DNA of 64,000 bases from an uncultured Gammaproteobacteria bacterium (GTDB lineage Bacteria; Patescibacteriota; Microgenomatia; 2-02-FULL-39-11), in assembly GCA_964520615.1 (NCBI GenBank), contig CAZFNL010000137.1, forward strand, positions 7,140 through 71,139, given 5' to 3'. Within the stretch, counting starts at the first letter, position 1. Each line of letters begins with the position of its first letter. Shown in pieces: positions 28,528 to 33,890 of this stretch. The translations under genes and the position numbers were made by a program. The notes beneath the pieces were generated by a model. It was not told where the DNA came from, made no database searches, and saw nothing but the letters and a program-made list of their open reading frames with translations.

Positions 28528-29166
28528 CTATTGCCAACGATTGTTTTTATATTGTGACAAAGTAAAACTTGGACCATGCCCTGGAAATACTGTAGTGTCA
28601 CCCGGCAAGCTTAAAATTGAATATATAGATTTTTGCAGAAAGTCACTACTGCTATAAGAGAAGTCCGTTCTACCTACTCCTCCTCCGGCAAACAAAAGGT
28701 CGCCGCCAAAAAGAGATTTTGATTTTTCTTGATAAAGGCAAACACTCCCTGGAGTATGTCCTGGAGTCTCTAGAATTTCTATATTTTCATTACCAACATT
28801 CAGAGTTTTTTTATCCGTCAGAAACCCGCTAATTTGAGGTGGAGGATCAATCTGAAGAATACCCAGGAAATGCCGGGCTGATTGCTGCATATTCTTCATC
28901 AAGAATACATCCTTCTTGTTTATATAAAATGGAATATCAAAAGCAAGTTGTAGCTCTAAAGCCGCCATAATATGGTCAAAATGACCATGTGTAGCTACTA
29001 AAGACACAGGTTTCAGACTCATATCTTTTAATTTTCTTATAATATACTCAACATCATCACCGGGATCAATAATTAAAGTAGACAATGTATCAGGGTCAGA
29101 AAGAAGATAACAGTTGGTCGCCATTTGACCTACCGTCAACACTGTAATTTGGAGATTTTCCTTCAT
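28528..29166 (-). CDS. MBL-fold metallo-hydrolase.
   Basis: HGHFDH (HxHxDH) zinc-binding motif, plus downstream His and Asp ligands (ETPGHTPGS, GGD, FPGHG). Confidence 0.8.
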   Translation of the reverse strand: MKENLQITVLTVGQMATNCYLLSDPDTLSTLIIDPGDDVEYIIRKLKDMSLKPVSLVATHGHFDHIMAALELQLAFDIPFYINKKDVFLMKNMQQSARHFLGILQIDPPPQISGFLTDKKTLNVGNENIEILETPGHTPGSVCLYQEKSKSLFGGDLLFAGGGVGRTDFSYSSSDFLQKSIYSILSLPGDTTVFPGHGPSFTLSQYKNNRWQ

Positions 29167-29624
29167 TACAGGGAATACGTTTTTTGAAACACGCTAATAC
29201 CACTAGATGAATTAAATTTCAAAGAAAGATCAATTGAGGTAACTCCCGTATCATAGACGCATTTTCCACTACTGCAGGTTCCCAGCACTATATCATCCCG
29301 TTTGACCTCTGAGTCTCCACTTTTAAGCGTAATTTTCCCCAAAACTCCGCGGGGAATTCCTGCTCCAGTTACATAAGTCATCTCATATTCTACTGATTGT
29401 GTATCGGAAGGTATCCTTTTTATATCCAAAGATAAAGACTTATTACCATCATTCGATGTTAGACTAACTTCAACACTGCTTGAAACTGTGGGAAACGCGA
29501 CTGTAGGAGTAGGAGTGACATCTGTTACGGCGGGTTTATTTGAAACCAAACCCTTAACCGCAAAAAAGACAACAACTATAATAACGATAATAGCGATAAT
29601 AACTCCTATAATAATCTTTTTCAT
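29166..29624 (-). CDS. Hypothetical membrane-anchored or secreted protein.
   Basis: N-terminal hydrophobic anchor (IIIGVIIAIIVIIVVVFFAV), Thr/Pro linker, beta-rich C-terminal region. No recognisable motif. Confidence 0.4.
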   Translation of the reverse strand: MKKIIIGVIIAIIVIIVVVFFAVKGLVSNKPAVTDVTPTPTVAFPTVSSSVEVSLTSNDGNKSLSLDIKRIPSDTQSVEYEMTYVTGAGIPRGVLGKITLKSGDSEVKRDDIVLGTCSSGKCVYDTGVTSIDLSLKFNSSSGISVFQKTYSL

Positions 29625-29639
29625 TTTCTTCTCCTTTTA

Positions 29640-30968
29640 TTAAACTAAAGATTTCTGAATTTCAGCTGATAAATTACTTATTTTTACCCTTATCTGTACA
29701 GTTGTATCGCGGTTTCGTATAGTCACCGTATCATCCTTTAATGTATCATAATCTACAGTGATACACCAAGGAGTACCAGCCTCATCCTGGGCGAAATATC
29801 TTTTACCTATATTTCCCCTAGCATCCCAGTATATCATCATTTCGCTTCTAAGCTCATTATAAATTTTCTTGGCTTTCTCAACAAGTTCAGGTTTGTTGGC
29901 TACAAGCGGAAAGACTGCAGCTTTATAAGGAGCAAGCCTTGGGTGAATCTTCATGACAACCCGGTCTTTTTCTTCATGATAAGCATCAATAAGGAAAAAA
30001 AGGGCGGACCTATCTACACCCGCAGAAGTTTCTATATCCCAAGGAATATATTTTTCCCCGGAAAACGGGTCCATATAGGACATATCCTGCCCGCTATATT
30101 TCTGATGTCGAGTCAAATCCCAATCTCCACGATGGTGAATACCCATAAATTCAGACCATCCCCACGGTGAATTATATTCAATATCTGTAGCTGCTCTGGC
30201 ATAATGTGCTCTTTCTTTATCCGTATGGTCTCTAAATCTCAAATTCCCCTTTATCATGCCCAATTTCAAATACCAATCCATTCTGTCTTTTTTCCAGAAA
30301 TTAAACCACTTCTCACCTTCTTTTTCATCAGGTTTTATATAAAATTGAACCTCCATCTGCTCAAATTCTCTCGATCTGAATGTAAAATTACCGGGTGTAA
30401 TCTCATTTCTGAAAGCTTTTCCTATCTGAGCAATACCAAAAGGTATTCTAACCCTTGTAGAATCAAGAACATTCCTAAAATTCACATGTACTCCATTTGT
30501 TATTTCTCCCCTCAAATATATTTCTGACTGCTTCCCCTCAATTACTCCCAAGTATGCCTTAACAAGAAGGTTGAATTTTTGGGGTTTGGTCCATTCCACT
30601 TTGATATTTTTTTCATTATTTTCTTTCGCGTGAGCTTCTTCATGTTCATTAATCTCTTCGCTCTTATCAGCCCTAAACCTTGCATGACAGATCTTACACT
30701 CTACTAACGGATCAACAAATGCCTCCACGTGTCCTGAAGCTACCCAAGCCTGAGGATTCATCATGATTGCCGCATCAATTCCCACAATATCATCCCGCAG
30801 TTGCACCATATCTTTCCACCAGAGATCTTTGATATTCTTCTTTAACAATACCCCTAAGGGTCCATAATCCCAAGTTCCGCCCAATCCTCCATAAACTTCA
30901 CTCCCGGGATAAATAAATCCCCTCCTTTTGCAAAGACTAACAATTTTCTCGAGTTGTACCATATACAA
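29640..30968 (-). CDS. glyS: Glycine--tRNA ligase (class II, alpha2 type). The likely true start is the ATG at 30962, because the ORF track starts at a TTG.
   Basis: LCKRRGFIYPGSEVYGGLGGTWDYGPLG N-terminal signature, class II motifs, the zinc-like insertion CKICHARF and a C-terminal anticodon-binding domain. Confidence 0.9.
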   Translation of the reverse strand: MYMVQLEKIVSLCKRRGFIYPGSEVYGGLGGTWDYGPLGVLLKKNIKDLWWKDMVQLRDDIVGIDAAIMMNPQAWVASGHVEAFVDPLVECKICHARFRADKSEEINEHEEAHAKENNEKNIKVEWTKPQKFNLLVKAYLGVIEGKQSEIYLRGEITNGVHVNFRNVLDSTRVRIPFGIAQIGKAFRNEITPGNFTFRSREFEQMEVQFYIKPDEKEGEKWFNFWKKDRMDWYLKLGMIKGNLRFRDHTDKERAHYARAATDIEYNSPWGWSEFMGIHHRGDWDLTRHQKYSGQDMSYMDPFSGEKYIPWDIETSAGVDRSALFFLIDAYHEEKDRVVMKIHPRLAPYKAAVFPLVANKPELVEKAKKIYNELRSEMMIYWDARGNIGKRYFAQDEAGTPWCITVDYDTLKDDTVTIRNRDTTVQIRVKISNLSAEIQKSLV

Positions 30969-31205
30969 ATAAAAAACCCGTCCTAATATAATTAGGGACG
31001 AGTTTAAATTACCCGCGGTTCCACCCTTCTTTTCCGAGTATTCATCGGAACACTTTTTGTATTTCTGCAGTTCACCTATGCCATTAGGATCATTACTGCA
31101 AATCTAATTATATCTATTATAAACGACCAACTAGCATTGTCAATAGAATTAAAACACGGCTGTCCATTTCAGAGATTAGTATATTAGATAAAATCATGAA
31201 CACTA
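30969..31205 (-). promoter_or_regulatory. T-box riboswitch leader (Gly-type, UGGA discriminator) with an intrinsic terminator, upstream of glyS.
   Basis: The minus strand contains AGGGUGGAACCGCGGG (T-box consensus AGGGUGGNACCGCG), then the terminator CUCGUCCCUAAU-uaua-UUAGGACGGG plus UUUUUU. An alternative antiterminator pairing is possible: AGGG/CCCU and GCGGG/CUCGU flanking the UGGAACC bulge. A GGC-A candidate specifier lies ~60 nt upstream. Confidence 0.55.
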
Positions 31206-31213
31206 AGGTTAGT

Positions 31214-31771
31214 TTACAACTTTCGTAAAAGACTATCACTCTTCAGGTTTTTCTCCATCACTTCGGAAAGAAATCTTTCAAGCTCCTCTCCTTTAACCAA
31301 GTTTTTCCTTGGTAAATACCCTAACTCAATAAGTAACTCCAATATAAAATCATCAACTAAGCTTTTTAGATTATCTCCTTGCAACAGGTTTAGTTGAAGC
31401 AACGTTTTTTGACAGAGTAAATAAACCTGGTAATGATCTTCTCTCTCAGGACAAAGCCTATCAATTACCTCAGCGATACGATAAGCAAATGCTACTTTAT
31501 TCAAGTCTGTCTTAATTTCTCTATACACTTGTATCGTCTGAACCTCCGTCAAGATATCAAAATTTCTTCCTTTAGTTGCGTAAGCTGATATATCATTAAA
31601 AAGTTCCAGATGGGGAGCACGACGGCTGTTTATTTTCCTTATTCCTTTGGCAATTAAGATTATCTTTCCTTGGTTTTTAGTCAACACCGTTACCAATTTA
31701 TCCGCTTCTCTATAATTCAGCCTTTTTATGACGATTCCCTCTATCTTATATGACTTGAAACTTCTATCCAT
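31214..31771 (-). CDS. recO: DNA repair protein RecO (compact form).
   Basis: N-terminal OB-fold pattern (EGIVIKRLNYREADKLVTVLTKNQGKIILIAKGIRKINSRR...LELFN) typical of RecO. Confidence 0.55.
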   Translation of the reverse strand: MDRSFKSYKIEGIVIKRLNYREADKLVTVLTKNQGKIILIAKGIRKINSRRAPHLELFNDISAYATKGRNFDILTEVQTIQVYREIKTDLNKVAFAYRIAEVIDRLCPEREDHYQVYLLCQKTLLQLNLLQGDNLKSLVDDFILELLIELGYLPRKNLVKGEELERFLSEVMEKNLKSDSLLRKL

Positions 31772-31934
31772 ATAAATATCATACCAAAGTGAATAACTCT
31801 TATATTCCTATTATAAAGTGAGGCTCCCCGTCCTTATGCCCGGGGCTTCCTCCAGAGAAAAAATTTGCATTCATCTCTATGGCTAAAGCCCAAAGATTTC
31901 TGCGAAGGATTAAATTTATATTTCAGGAGATGGA

Positions 31935-33890
31935 TTAGAGCTGAAAAGTGACTGTTTTATCAGTCAGAAGAAAAAACTGATCAATTTGTTTCCCATTATA
32001 ATAAATAGTATATTGCGGATTGTCGGTTCCAGGCTGCTTTTGTATCAATAGTTTATACACATCGCCTTTCTTTACCTTAAATGGAAGGTTATATTTGACT
32101 ACCACCTGAGCTGCACCTTCTGGCTTGACCGTCATAAATCCTTCAAAAACAGTCTTGCCCAACTCATCATAGGTTGAAGTGGTTTTTTCTGATCCCACAA
32201 AAGAAGTTAACTTTGAACCGGAAGGCACATAGAATCTCAACCAATTACGCAAGATTCCGTTAAGACAGAGTTGTCCTGCTTCCAAATTACAGTTGCTGGG
32301 AGGTGAAGGGTTTTTATAATTTATAGTTACTGTTTCAGCTACACTTCCATCATCTGTTACATTTATCTCCTGTTTCACCGAAAACTTTACGAACAAATTT
32401 GATTTGGCTCCTGCAAAATTCACATTACTGATGTGTAAATAATCACCATCAAACGGCACTATTCTACCGGCAAAATTTAGGGCTTCGATACCTTTTTGCG
32501 CCTCTTGGTTATGGAAATAAAATAAAACATGCTTTTGTTGCGCTTCAGTTAAAAACATTTCTATAAGTTGTCCCCAGTATTTGGAGGGTGAAACGCCTAA
32601 AGCTCTCTGCATTATCTGGTACAGTAATACTCCAATTATATCTTTCCTCTCCGTATTGAAAGTAGCCAAAGGCTTGGCTGAATAGTCTTCAAGCTCATAT
32701 ATAGCTTTAGGACAATCACACCTAGGATCATTCTGCGCACTAAATTGACGGCCTGCAATATTGAAATCTCCCAATATTTTTATCGCATCAACCAATACAT
32801 GCGTATCTACAGCCACGATACCATCAAATGGAGGTAAATCAGGTACCGAATCCTTCAACATACTTTCAAGTTTCTGCATGGACACAACATAATCTGGAGA
32901 TAGATTGCTATCTCGCAACTCAAGAGTGTTGACCTTAATATGATATTTCAGTATAGGCGGAGGCGCTGGAAATGTCTTAGTTTTTGCTGCATCAAGTTTA
33001 TATATATCATCAGCTTTTATGACTTGCATCTTACCTTTATCTACCTTAAAAAGGGCATAACCTGTAATGAATCCTCCTGTAGCACGAAGTTCAGCATCGT
33101 TTTGGAAAAGAACCATATAGGTTTTGGGGTCTTTATTGCCTAAAAGCGTGGGGAGTTCCTTCAAGAATGGTTGAGCGTCAACAAAGAGCTTGGCTGTTGC
33201 GGAAAAAAGATTCTTTGCCGCTACAATTCGGCCTCTTATCGGTAATGACCCTAATTGTTCCGGATAACGGTTTGGGTCGATCTGATCAAGTTCATTCCCG
33301 GTGATATTAATTTTGGCGGCAATATCCGATAGTTTAGGCGTCACTTTATCCAAAGTCTCCACAGCAAGTTTTATCCTATCGTCAGCACTCCCTTCTACAA
33401 AAGATGATTTACCCTTCAATCCCAAAAGATCAGCGTATGGAACAAGCGTTGTGACTGTAATCTGTGCTGCCTGAACCCCTGCAATTCCTCCTGTAACCAT
33501 ATGTTGGAAATCTTTTTCATATGATCCTAAAAAAGGAACGTAACTAACCCATGCGACTTTACCCAATTGGCTATTTACGTTTTCTAAGTTGGACTCCAAT
33601 TCAGTAAGTTTCACTTGAGACGAAGCTATATCCTTGCTTTTTATTGCGAAATAAGCTTCTTTAGCAGAATTGGCGGATTTCTGTACAGCAAAGTAGAGAT
33701 TTCTTCCCGGAATAATGAGTGCTGCCAGAAAAATTACTATTAGTATAAGAAATACTGCTAGGACTGTACCTATTATCTTTAATGTCTTTTTCTCTCCGGC
33801 AGAATTTCGACGTTTTGAAACTATTTCTTTTCTTGATGGTGTTTTTCCAAAAGTTACTTGTTTGAATCCATCCATATTACTAAACAGCAC
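31935..33890 (-). CDS. Large membrane-anchored extracytoplasmic protein of unknown function (possibly DUF4012-like). First gene of the glycosylation cluster.
   Basis: A single N-terminal TM segment (IIGTVLAVFLILIVIFLAALII) followed by a ~590-aa soluble region. Overlaps the priming sugar-transferase gene by 11 nt. Confidence 0.4.
   Translation of the reverse strand: MLFSNMDGFKQVTFGKTPSRKEIVSKRRNSAGEKKTLKIIGTVLAVFLILIVIFLAALIIPGRNLYFAVQKSANSAKEAYFAIKSKDIASSQVKLTELESNLENVNSQLGKVAWVSYVPFLGSYEKDFQHMVTGGIAGVQAAQITVTTLVPYADLLGLKGKSSFVEGSADDRIKLAVETLDKVTPKLSDIAAKINITGNELDQIDPNRYPEQLGSLPIRGRIVAAKNLFSATAKLFVDAQPFLKELPTLLGNKDPKTYMVLFQNDAELRATGGFITGYALFKVDKGKMQVIKADDIYKLDAAKTKTFPAPPPILKYHIKVNTLELRDSNLSPDYVVSMQKLESMLKDSVPDLPPFDGIVAVDTHVLVDAIKILGDFNIAGRQFSAQNDPRCDCPKAIYELEDYSAKPLATFNTERKDIIGVLLYQIMQRALGVSPSKYWGQLIEMFLTEAQQKHVLFYFHNQEAQKGIEALNFAGRIVPFDGDYLHISNVNFAGAKSNLFVKFSVKQEINVTDDGSVAETVTINYKNPSPPSNCNLEAGQLCLNGILRNWLRFYVPSGSKLTSFVGSEKTTSTYDELGKTVFEGFMTVKPEGAAQVVVKYNLPFKVKKGDVYKLLIQKQPGTDNPQYTIYYNGKQIDQFFLLTDKTVTFQL

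What the first reader, a model, noticed from the sequence alone, without database searches (positions are those of the whole stretch)
30969..31205. Apparent Gly T-box riboswitch leader with its terminator abutting the glyS start
The minus strand carries AGGGUGGAACCGCGGG, matching the T-box antiterminator consensus. The UGGA bulge is complementary to the ACCA end of tRNA-Gly with the discriminator U. It is followed immediately by a terminator helix (CUCGUCCCUAAU/AUUAGGACGGG) and UUUUUU, and antiterminator pairings AGGG/CCCU and GCGGG/CUCGU can be drawn. The U-tract ends only ~3-9 nt before the glyS start, leaving no room for a conventional Shine-Dalgarno. This is atypical.
Basis: partly seen in the sequence, partly recalled or inferred. 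Interest (0 to 1): 0.5.

Follow-up and report, generated by a model that had tools for sequence, protein, structure and literature searches.

The report
Minimal glycine T-box riboswitch before glyS
The leader of the glycyl-tRNA synthetase gene of this candidate-phyla-radiation bacterium is a real glycine T-box (a tRNA-sensing RNA switch), but an unusually small one that lacks both parts thought necessary to hold the tRNA, and I found no description of this form.

Summary
On the minus strand a perfect sigma-70 promoter (31143-31116) drives a ~147-nt leader. It has a canonical T-box 3' half: Stem III with its flanking purines, an AGGG/UGGAACC/GCGGG antiterminator, and an overlapping terminator plus U6 that ends 8 nt before the glyS ATG (30962).

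Rfam T-box scores only 43.6 bits against a threshold of 93, because Stem I is 39 nt instead of ~90. This Stem I is a K-turn, a 4-bp helix and a hexaloop AUGGCA that presents the Gly codon GGC followed by A. There is no tRNA-elbow platform and no Stem II.

About 20 distinct relatives in Microgenomates (CPR) genomes and metagenomes share this layout. Covariation is strong (94% of cells paired, 15 of 18 pairs compensatory). They sit upstream of glyS or glyA, either alone or in tandem with other T-boxes.

The missing Shine-Dalgarno is normal here: 39 of 54 genes in the window have none.

Best reading: a functional, tRNA-Gly(GCC)-responsive transcription attenuator of a minimal architecture. It combines the ultrashort Stem I known only from actinobacterial ileS T-boxes with the Stem II-less layout of glycine T-boxes. 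I found no paper describing this. It is a new variant of a known kind; function is inferred, not tested.

The parts
31116..31143 (-). Sigma-70 promoter: TTGACA (31143-31138), 16-nt spacer, TATAAT (31121-31116). The inferred transcription start is near 31109, only ~7 nt before Stem I.
   Evidence: 12/12 consensus match, the only perfect site in 29000-33000. It is conserved in L081/L082, while the DNA upstream of it carries an 87-nt indel.
31064..31102 (-). Ultrashort Stem I. C-stem UUUGCAGU (31102-31095) pairs with ACUGCAGA (31071-31064). K-turn: 3-nt bulge AAU 31094-31092, G.A/A.G from GA 31091-31090 and GA 31073-31072, then U.U. NC helix CCUA 31088-31085 pairs with UAGG 31078-31075. Terminal hexaloop AUGGCA 31084-31079.
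   Evidence: MFE fold and inverted repeat I8. C-stem and NC helix covary across the family. Rfam aligns only 23 nt where the model has 87 Stem I positions.
31079..31082 (-). Specifier GGC (31082-31080, Gly codon) followed by the conserved purine A (31079), presented in the terminal loop.
   Evidence: GGCA is kept in every minimal family member retrieved through GlyRS rather than through a pattern: L067, L009 (two elements), L002 (two), L019, L081, L204/L205. tRNA-Gly(GCC) is present on family contig L195.
31051..31063 (-). Single-stranded A-rich linker AAUACAAAAAGUG. It ends in the RRRxG purine motif (AAGUG). No Stem II and no IIA/B pseudoknot.
   Evidence: no consistent hairpin lies between Stem I and Stem III in any family member.
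31032..31050 (-). Stem III: UUCCGA-UGAAUAC-UCGGAA, followed by AAGA (31031-31028).
   Evidence: Inverted repeat I6. Matches Rfam Stem III with PP near 1. Every family member has a hairpin of different sequence ending 5 nt before GGGUGG.
30994..31027 (-). T-box sequence and antiterminator. Helix A1: AGGG/CCCU. 7-nt bulge UGGAACC (31023-31017), in which UGGA 31023-31020 pairs with a tRNA 3'-UCCA. Helix A2: GCGGG/CUCGU, with the G31016.U30998 wobble at its base.
   Evidence: Covariation in A1 and A2: GU 20, GC 5, AU 1 at the sensor pair. Antiterminator MFE is -8.3 kcal/mol.
30971..31002 (-). Intrinsic terminator: hairpin 31002-30977 (-9.6 kcal/mol) plus U6 30976-30971. Its 5' arm is the 3' strand of the antiterminator, so the two folds exclude each other.
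29640..30962 (-). Regulated gene: glycine--tRNA ligase (alpha2-type GlyRS, 440 aa). ATG at 30962 with no Shine-Dalgarno.
   Evidence: Pfam HGTP_anticodon plus the class II core. The closest named database relatives are glycine--tRNA ligases of Patescibacteria/Daviesbacteria, 94-75% identical. SD statistics.

Best explanation
This is a functional, glycine-specific T-box transcription attenuator of a minimal architecture. It controls glyS in a Microgenomates (candidate phyla radiation) bacterium.

Shown by sequence and comparison:
- A consensus promoter starts a ~147-nt leader.
- A 39-nt Stem I consists only of a K-turn, a short helix and a hexaloop that displays GGC-A.
- An A-rich linker, Stem III and the T-box antiterminator follow. 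The antiterminator's 3' strand is shared with a terminator-U6 that ends 8 nt before the glyS ATG.

Inferred mechanism:
- The anticodon GCC of uncharged tRNA-Gly pairs with GGC in the loop, and A31079 stacks beneath.
- The K-turn redirects the linker, so that the Stem III/antiterminator 'discriminator' can cap the acceptor end.
- UGGA pairs with the free 3'-UCCA of the tRNA. This stabilises the antiterminator (-8.3 kcal/mol on its own) against the terminator (-9.6), and RNA polymerase reads into glyS.
- Glycyl-tRNA clashes at the G.U pair at the base of helix A2. The terminator then forms and transcription stops.

Unlike every described T-box class, there is neither the Stem I distal double-T-loop platform for the tRNA elbow nor a Stem II S-turn. 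tRNA capture would therefore rest on the strong GGC:GCC duplex plus the 3'-end contact alone.
For: T-box identity:
- Rfam RF00230 is the only family hit, at E = 2e-8 locally and 2.6e-6 over the whole window. The 3' half (model positions 147-219) aligns at PP near 1.
- The T-box 14-mer is unique in the window, with 0.00 expected by chance.
- The promoter is a perfect 12/12 match.
- The terminator and antiterminator exclude each other and have comparable energies.

Family:
- 17 distinct seeds have the same short Stem I. CM R1 recovers 26 elements, plus L204/L205 in a separate search. These include elements that are neither seeds nor pattern-derived: L019, L002 (two), L009b and L204/L205.

Covariation:
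- RNAalifold on the MAFFT alignment gives 12 of 18 pairs with compensatory changes.
- On the CM alignment, 94.2% of cells are paired and 15 of 18 pairs have double changes. 0 of 500 shuffles reach the observed value. The covariation score is 0.637, against at most 0.147 for the slid controls.
- Among 99 distinct pattern matches, 10 of the 11 with an independent A1 complement and U-tract have a fully complementary NC helix. Only 3 of the other 88 do.
- Stem III is present in every member with unrelated sequences.

Regulon and ligand:
- Downstream genes fit a glycine regulon: glyS in most, glyA/SHMT in L144, L147 and L176.
- A contig carrying the element (L195) encodes tRNA-Gly(GCC) with discriminator U.

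Origin and conservation:
- The base of the long-Stem-I Gly T-box in L147 is colinear with the minimal Stem I next to it.
- The leader differs at only 4 of ~147 nt from L081, while the adjacent spacer has an 87-nt indel.

Literature:
- Glycine T-boxes can do without Stem II because GGC:GCC is strong (PMC7583486, PMC11404447).
Against: - Nothing has been tested experimentally.
- The score is far below Rfam's curated threshold (43.6 vs 93 bits).
- In canonical T-boxes, disrupting the Stem I platform lowers tRNA affinity up to 60-fold and abolishes readthrough in vivo. Truncated Stem I elements bind tRNA barely at all without Stem II (PMC7583486). A switch with neither is therefore not guaranteed to work unaided.
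- The element is sporadic. It is present in 4 of 80 species-representative GlyRS loci (mostly CPR). Syntenic recO-glyS loci such as L203 and L206 lack it.
- No tRNA gene lies in the window, so the cognate tRNA of this genome was not seen.
- Part of the family was collected with a pattern that fixed TGAT, GGCA, GA and GGTGGAACC, and with a complementarity filter. The CM alignment is fitted to the structure. Invariance and pairing of those positions are therefore partly by construction.
Confidence: 0.8

Rival explanations
1. It is an ordinary, full-length glyQS-type T-box. It would have a long Stem I with specifier internal loop, AG bulge and distal loop, and the covariance model simply mis-aligned it.
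For: The 3' half is fully canonical. Long-Stem-I Gly T-boxes do exist in related CPR contigs, for example L147 at 81.7 bits.
Against: - The perfect promoter ends at 31116 and Stem I starts at 31102, so there is no room for more 5' structure.
- Only 39 nt lie between the C-stem arms, and GGC sits in a 6-nt terminal loop.
- Rfam collapses 87 model positions into 23 nt.
- The same short form recurs with covariation in about 20 distinct sequences.
Confidence: 0.03
2. It is a decayed relic. A former T-box lost the distal Stem I and no longer senses tRNA, and the hairpin-U6 acts as a constitutive or leaky attenuator (or does nothing).
For: - Platform loss abolishes readthrough in model T-boxes (PMC7583486).
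- CPR genomes are reduced.
- The element is missing from many syntenic relatives.
Against: - A constitutive terminator before an essential single-copy aaRS gene, driven by a consensus promoter, would be harmful.
- The K-turn, the GGC-A loop, the UGGA bulge and the G.U sensor pair are kept, and helices covary, across lineages whose GlyRS is only about 54% identical to the window's (L067).
- The leader is better conserved than the flanking spacer.
Confidence: 0.07
3. It is a tRNA-sensing T-box, but not self-sufficient. The missing elbow and Stem II contacts would be supplied by something else. Candidates are a K-turn-binding protein, a slow or pausing polymerase that widens the binding window, or cooperation with a second T-box. 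In some relatives an extended Stem III loop could play this role.
For: - Many relatives use the minimal element in tandem with another T-box.
- A subset has a conserved Stem III loop motif YUGGA(N)AUCAU.
- L7Ae-family proteins are discussed as K-turn stabilisers for T-boxes (PMC7583486).
- Lengthening Stem III raised tRNA affinity about 6-fold in an ileS T-box (bioRxiv 10.1101/2023.02.28.530422).
Against: The window element is solo, as are L067, L154 and L141 (solo so far as the DNA held for each locus shows; L204/L205 were searched only within 1.2 kb upstream of glyS). Its Stem III is short and lacks the loop motif. No candidate protein was identified.
Confidence: 0.2
4. Control is dual. Because the terminator hairpin ends only about 15 nt (and the U-tract 8 nt) before the ATG, a re-formed hairpin in read-through transcripts would also hinder 30S binding. 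The element would then gate translation as well as transcription.
For: - The geometry fits.
- Translational short-Stem-I Gly T-boxes that sequester an SD exist as second tandem copies in relatives L009 and L002.
Against: - There is no SD to sequester. The AGGA in the 3' arm lies 12-18 nt from the start codons, and the genome is SD-poor.
- In L205 the same element sits about 75 nt from the start, and in L154 an SD follows the U-tract. Abutment is therefore not a family feature.
Confidence: 0.12

Closest known systems
glyQS/glyS glycine T-box riboswitches of Firmicutes (B. subtilis, G. kaustophilus, O. iheyensis, S. aureus; Rfam RF00230)
   Same: - GGC specifier followed by a purine.
- UGGA bulge matching discriminator U.
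- K-turn at the base of Stem I.
- No Stem II or IIA/B pseudoknot; a single-stranded linker instead.
- Stem III with RRRxG...AA flanks.
- G.U pair at the base of helix A2.
- Terminator/antiterminator switch in front of GlyRS.
   Different: - Stem I stops at the specifier. There is no S-turn-containing internal Specifier Loop, no AG bulge and no distal loop, so no double-T-loop platform for the tRNA elbow.
- The core is about 109 nt rather than about 180.
- It scores 43.6 bits against a gathering score of 93.
- The host is a CPR bacterium.
Ultrashort (US) Stem I ileS T-boxes of Actinobacteria (M. tuberculosis, M. smegmatis, N. farcinica; TBDB 'class II')
   Same: [quoted passage not shown] There is no elbow-binding platform.
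   Different: - The known class is described as exclusively ileS/tRNA-Ile and translational (SD sequestration). It depends on Stem II (S-turn) plus the IIA/B pseudoknot for tRNA binding (bioRxiv 10.1101/2023.02.28.530422; PMC7583486).
- Here the specifier is Gly and the gene is glyS.
- Here the output is an intrinsic terminator, and Stem II and the pseudoknot are absent.
Tandem T-box arrangements (known in Firmicutes and other phyla)
   Same: Relatives of this element occur as two successive Gly T-boxes before one gene (L009, L002, L136, L144/L176, L195, L147).
   Different: The window element is single. In relatives the tandems mix minimal/terminator, minimal/SD-sequestering and long-Stem-I forms.

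Membership tests
T-box leader (Rfam RF00230) | Covariance-model score at or above the curated gathering score (93 bits) | tested here: not met
   43.6 bits, with E = 2e-8 locally and 2.6e-6 over the window. No hit at gathering. Relatives of the minimal form score 30-54 bits.
T-box leader (Rfam RF00230) | T-box sequence: antiterminator helices A1 and A2 with a 7-nt bulge UGGNACC and a G.U (or G-C) pair at the base of A2 | tested here: met
   AGGG-UGGAACC-GCGGG...CUCGU-CCCU at 31027-30994, with G31016.U30998. Family counts at the sensor pair: GU 20, GC 5, AU 1. A1 and A2 covary.
T-box leader (Rfam RF00230) | Mutually exclusive intrinsic terminator (or SD sequestrator) that uses the 3' strand of the antiterminator | tested here: met
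   Hairpin 31002-30977 (-9.6 kcal/mol) plus U6, against an antiterminator of -8.3 kcal/mol.
T-box leader (Rfam RF00230) | Stem III flanked by purines (5'-RRRxG-Stem III-AA-3') | tested here: met
   AAGUG-UUCCGA...UCGGAA-AA at 31055-31030. A Stem III hairpin is present in all family members.
T-box leader (Rfam RF00230) | K-turn (GA motif) at the base of Stem I | tested here: met
   3-nt bulge plus GA (31094-31090) opposite GA (31073-31072). The arrangement is colinear with the Rfam consensus gaUGA...gGAG. The flanking helices covary.
T-box leader (Rfam RF00230) | Specifier codon followed by a purine, matching the amino acid of the regulated gene | tested here: met
   GGC-A at 31082-31079 before GlyRS. 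It lies in a terminal hexaloop rather than an internal Specifier Loop with an S-turn.
T-box leader (Rfam RF00230) | Distal Stem I AG bulge plus distal loop (interdigitated double T-loop) that stacks on the tRNA elbow | tested here: not met
   Only 6 nt lie beyond the 4-bp helix above the K-turn. Rfam's 87 Stem I positions are replaced by 23 nt.
T-box leader (Rfam RF00230) | Cognate tRNA in the genome with a matching anticodon and discriminator base | tested here: inconclusive
   No tRNA gene lies in the 64-kb window. A related contig with the element (L195) encodes tRNA-Gly(GCC) with discriminator U.
T-box leader (Rfam RF00230) | Uncharged-tRNA-dependent antitermination | not testable with these tools
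   Needs in vitro transcription or a reporter assay.
Ultrashort-Stem-I (US, 'class II') T-boxes | [quoted passage not shown] | tested here: met
   Definition taken from bioRxiv 10.1101/2023.02.28.530422.
Ultrashort-Stem-I (US, 'class II') T-boxes | Stem II with S-turn plus Stem IIA/B pseudoknot, required for tRNA binding | tested here: not met
   A 13-nt unstructured linker joins Stem I and Stem III. No conserved hairpin occupies that position in any relative.
Ultrashort-Stem-I (US, 'class II') T-boxes | Translational output (SD sequestrator) and ileS/tRNA-Ile specificity | tested here: not met
   The output is a terminator plus U6 with no SD. The specifier is GGC and the gene is glyS.
glyQS-type glycine T-box | Gly codon, UGGA, no Stem II, and a long Stem I with platform | tested here: not met
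   The first three features are met and the long Stem I is absent. A true long-Stem-I Gly T-box from a CPR contig (L147, 81.7 bits) serves as contrast.

The most novel reading that the evidence does not exclude
Microgenomates (CPR) bacteria use a natural T-box of about 100 nt, which would be the smallest described. It would sense tRNA-Gly aminoacylation through only two short base-pairing contacts: a 3-bp codon-anticodon duplex in a hairpin loop and the 4-bp UGGA:UCCA duplex. It has neither the elbow platform nor Stem II. The variants form one family: solo, tandem, terminator-type and SD-sequestering. Rfam-threshold annotation cannot see them, so T-box regulation in CPR has gone unnoticed.
Probability: 0.5. 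Interest if true: 0.75.

Novelty: new variant of a known kind. Interest (0 to 1): 0.6.

Why it matters
Structural and biochemical work on T-boxes holds that tRNA capture needs the anticodon contact reinforced in one of two ways. One is the Stem I platform on the tRNA elbow; losing it abolishes readthrough. The other is the Stem II S-turn, which is essential when Stem I is truncated.

A conserved natural T-box with neither would define the true minimal requirements for a tRNA-sensing riboswitch. It would also test the idea that the GC-rich GGC:GCC duplex can stand alone.

It offers a compact part of about 100 nt for engineering tRNA-responsive switches.

Finally, it shows that RNA-based amino-acid sensing exists in the reduced genomes of candidate-phyla-radiation bacteria, where standard annotation thresholds miss it.

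Tried and rejected
- **Rfam at gathering thresholds on the whole window:** no hit. The T-box appears only in E-value mode.
- **Strict T-box motif in 80 GlyRS loci from species-representative genomes:** only 4 loci have it. The element is sporadic, and GlyRS-guided retrieval alone was too thin.
- **Gapped pattern scan of metagenomes:** most of the 99 distinct matches were chance hits inside coding sequences (for example a repeated ...CACAAAAACTGGTGGAACCC... gene). They were removed with stem-complementarity and hallmark filters.
- **tRNA search in the window:** none found. The anticodon repertoire of this genome could not be checked.
- **A hidden SD in the terminator's 3' arm (AGGA 30984-30981):** rejected. 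It lies 12 nt from the TTG and 18 nt from the ATG, and the genome hardly uses SDs.
- **The hairpin-U6 as the recO terminator:** rejected. It lies about 235 nt past the recO stop and downstream of a consensus promoter.
- **A Stem II or pseudoknot in the linker:** none found here or in relatives.
- **Sherwood et al. 2015 (PMC4313828), the original description of US T-boxes:** not held in the library. Its content is cited only through later papers.
- **Literature searches joining T-box with CPR, Patescibacteria or Microgenomates names:** nothing returned. This is absence of evidence within an open-access library only.

Full report
**Observation**

- AGGGUGGAACCGCGGG lies at 31027-31012.
- The terminator arms are CUCGUCCCUAAU (31002-30991) and AUUAGGACGGG (30987-30977), followed by U6 (30976-30971).
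- The first ATG of the GlyRS reading frame is at 30962. An in-frame TTG lies at 30968.

The 14-mer AGGGTGGNACCGCG occurs once in the window even with one mismatch allowed. None is expected in 100 shuffles. The product from the ATG (440 aa) is 100% identical to a database protein. Its closest named relatives are glycine--tRNA ligases of Patescibacteria/Daviesbacteria, 94-75% identical. It carries the class II core and the HGTP anticodon-binding domain.

Three details needed correction.
- The specifier GGC-A is at 31082-31079, not 31090-31100.
- UGGA pairs with a 3'-UCCA end, not ACCA.

**Is it a T-box?**

At Rfam's gathering thresholds the whole window gives no hit at all. In E-value mode RF00230 is the only family found. 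It scores 43.6 bits against a gathering score of 93. The E-value is 2e-8 on 501 nt and 2.6e-6 on the whole window.

The alignment explains the low score.
- Model positions 147-219 align at posterior probabilities near 1. These are the purine string, Stem III, helix A1, the UGGNACC bulge and helix A2.
- The 87 positions of distal Stem I are replaced by 23 nt.

**Anatomy**
- A 12/12 sigma-70 promoter, TTGACA-16-TATAAT, spans 31143-31116. It puts the transcription start near 31109, about 7 nt before the first helix.
- Stem I (31102-31064) has four parts:
  - an 8-bp C-stem;
  - a standard K-turn (bulge AAU, G.A/A.G from GA 31091-90 and GA 31073-72, then U.U);
  - a 4-bp helix CCUA/UAGG;
  - a hexaloop AUGGCA carrying GGC plus A.
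- A 13-nt A-rich linker ends in AAGUG, the RRRxG motif.
- Stem III is UUCCGA/UCGGAA, followed by AA.
- The antiterminator is AGGG-UGGAACC-GCGGG...CUCGU-CCCU, with a G.U pair at the base of A2.
- The terminator hairpin (-9.6 kcal/mol) reuses the antiterminator's 3' strand. The antiterminator alone folds at -8.3 kcal/mol.

So the discriminator half is textbook, as laid out in PMC7583486 and PMC11404447. Stem I, however, ends at the specifier.

**Relatives**

GlyRS-guided retrieval from 185,579 species genomes returned 80 loci, mostly CPR. Only L002, L009, L019 and L067 carry the element.

The two 94% relatives, L081 and L082, have the same leader. It differs at 4 of ~147 nt, and none of the changes breaks a helix or the GGC-A specifier:
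- AAU to GAU in the K-turn bulge;
- AUGGCA to AGGGCA in the loop;
- U-A to U.G in the C-stem;
- one base in the A2 loop.

The spacer upstream of their promoter carries an 87-nt indel.

A gapped pattern scan of metagenome contigs gave 99 distinct matches, mostly chance hits.
- Of the 11 matches that also have an A1 complement and a downstream U-tract, 10 have a fully complementary upper Stem I helix.
- Only 3 of the other 88 do.

Seventeen distinct seeds were aligned and a covariance model R1 was built. R1 recovers 26 elements. These include matches that are neither seeds nor pattern-derived. In a separate search R1 also finds L204/L205, which come from Woesebacteria-like genomes with the same DUF4012-recO-glyS synteny.

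The GlyRS of a further member (L141) groups with Gottesmanbacteria and Woesebacteria. The family therefore spans the Microgenomates.

**Structure support**
- RNAalifold on the MAFFT alignment predicts the C-stem, the upper Stem I helix, A1 and A2. 12 of 18 pairs have compensatory changes.
- On the CM alignment, 94.2% of cells pair and 15 of 18 pairs have double changes. No shuffle of 500 reaches the observed values. The covariation score is 0.637, against at most 0.147 when partners are slid.
- Every member has a Stem III hairpin of unrelated sequence ending 5 nt before GGGUGG. None has a conserved hairpin where Stem II would be.

Caveats:
- The pattern fixed TGAT, GGCA, GA and GGTGGAACC, and I filtered on upper-helix complementarity.
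- The CM alignment leans towards its own structure.
- Even so, the loci retrieved through GlyRS alone (window, L081, L067, L009 a/b, L002 a/b, L019, L204/205) keep the K-turn GA/GA and GGCA. They also vary the loop-closing pair (A-U, G-C) and the helix length.

**Biology**
- Downstream genes are glyS in most cases and glyA (serine hydroxymethyltransferase) in L144, L147 and L176. In some loci small membrane ORFs precede glyS. This is a coherent glycine regulon.
- No tRNA gene lies in the window.
- Contig L195, which carries two of these elements, encodes tRNA-Gly(GCC) with discriminator U. That matches GGC and UGGA.
39 of the window's 54 long ORFs have no SD of 4 nt or more before their first start codon.
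- Abutment of terminator and start codon is lineage-specific. L205 has about 75 nt between them, and L154 has an AGGAG after the U-tract.

**Mechanism**

The elements and their mutual exclusivity are shown. The following steps are inferred.
- Uncharged tRNA-Gly(GCC) pairs with GGC in the hexaloop, stacked on A31079.
- The K-turn turns the chain.
- The linker lets Stem III and the antiterminator cap the acceptor end, where UGGA pairs with UCCA.
- The antiterminator is stabilised and polymerase reads into glyS.
- Glycyl-tRNA is rejected at the G.U pair. The slightly more stable terminator forms and transcription stops 8 nt before the ATG.

**Comparison with known classes**

The literature describes three archetypes.
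- Long Stem I plus Stem II: most transcriptional T-boxes.
- Long Stem I without Stem II: glycine T-boxes. Stem II is dispensable there because GGC:GCC is strong (PMC7583486, PMC11404447).
- Ultrashort Stem I with the specifier in the terminal loop. This class is said to be exclusively ileS and translational, and dependent on Stem II plus the IIA/B pseudoknot (bioRxiv 10.1101/2023.02.28.530422; PMC7583486).

Two experimental results bear on this element (both from PMC7583486).
- Disruption of the platform lowers affinity up to 60-fold and abolishes readthrough in vivo.
- Truncated Stem I binds tRNA barely at all without Stem II.

The element here combines the two reductions. It has an ultrashort Stem I and no Stem II, with a transcriptional output and Gly specificity.

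In L147 a long-Stem-I Gly T-box (81.7 bits, still below threshold) sits directly upstream of a minimal one. The two Stem I bases are colinear (GGC-GUU-GA-A-AAGG...CCUU-G-GA-GCC versus AGC-GUU-GA-U-AGCA-AUGGCA-UGCU-G-GA-GCU). This suggests the minimal form arose by deleting everything distal of the specifier.

Existing resources would not have captured these elements.
- TBDB collected T-boxes through Rfam-based models, discarded sequences under 100 nt, and ran its short-Stem-I model search on Actinobacteria (PMC7778990).
- No other Rfam 15 family matches the element.
- Searches joining T-box with CPR names found nothing.
- That is only an open-access library, so prior description elsewhere cannot be excluded.

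**Rivals**
- A canonical long T-box is excluded by the anatomy.
- A decayed relic is unlikely. The functional nucleotides are conserved and helices covary across lineages whose GlyRS is only about 54% identical to the window's (L067). A constitutive terminator before an essential gene would also be costly.
- Dependence on an extra factor remains open. Candidates are a K-turn protein, tandem partners, or (in some relatives) a conserved Stem III loop YUGGA(N)AUCAU.
- An added translational effect of the hairpin so close to the ATG is possible, but not supported by family-wide features.

**Verdict**

What is there is a previously unannotated, apparently undescribed minimal variant of the T-box, forming a family in Microgenomates. 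Function is inferred from anatomy and comparative evidence only.

Noticed in passing
L009 211-545; L002 873-1200; L136 771-1100; L195 1163-1500; L144 10536-10805; L176 1829-2091: Relatives carry tandem Gly T-boxes: a minimal terminator-type element followed by a second short-Stem-I element. In L009 and L002 the second copy has no U-tract, and the 3' strand of its A2 helix pairs with the SD (GAAGGAGGUGUC) of a small membrane ORF. This points to a translational (SD-sequestering) version within the same family.
   Followed up: partly
L147 578-229 (minus strand): A long-Stem-I Gly T-box (Rfam 81.7 bits, still below the 93-bit threshold) lies directly upstream of a minimal one, before glyA (SHMT). 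The bases of the two Stem I elements are colinear, which suggests the minimal form is a deletion derivative. Even canonical-looking CPR T-boxes fall below Rfam's cut-off.
   Followed up: partly
Stem III loops of L009 (both copies), L099, L147, L195 (both copies), L176 and L136 second copies: A subset of the family has a longer Stem III with a conserved loop motif YUGGA(N1-2)AUCAU. It is absent from the window element, whose loop is UGAAUAC. It might be an extra tRNA contact compensating for the missing platform; this was not tested.
   Followed up: no
window 1-64000, minus strand: All 54 long ORFs lie on the minus strand. 39 of them have no Shine-Dalgarno of 4 nt or more before their first start codon, so translation initiation in this organism seems largely SD-independent. 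Some other family lineages (for example L099 and L009) have strong SDs.
   Followed up: partly
L081/L082 2727-2813 versus window ~31150: The 94%-identical relatives have an 87-nt insertion between recO and the glyS promoter. The promoter and leader are almost unchanged.
   Followed up: no
L203 and L206 versus window 31214-30962, L204, L205: The DUF4012-recO-glyS-(152 aa ORF) synteny is conserved across Microgenomates. In L203 and L206, however, recO and glyS are only 6-12 nt apart and there is no T-box. This is presence/absence polymorphism of the leader within one gene order.
   Followed up: partly
L195 9833-9906: The tRNA-Gly(GCC) on a T-box-bearing contig has discriminator U. Its T-loop reads UCCAAUU, with C where the near-universal U55 would be. 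The genomic 3' tail is CCC rather than CCA. This is a single example and its significance is unknown.
   Followed up: no
window 31214-31771 (-) and 31935-33890 (-): RecO is only 185 aa (N domain plus a partial C domain). It is preceded by a 651-aa DUF4012 protein and a sugar transferase, a typical CPR gene context.
   Followed up: no
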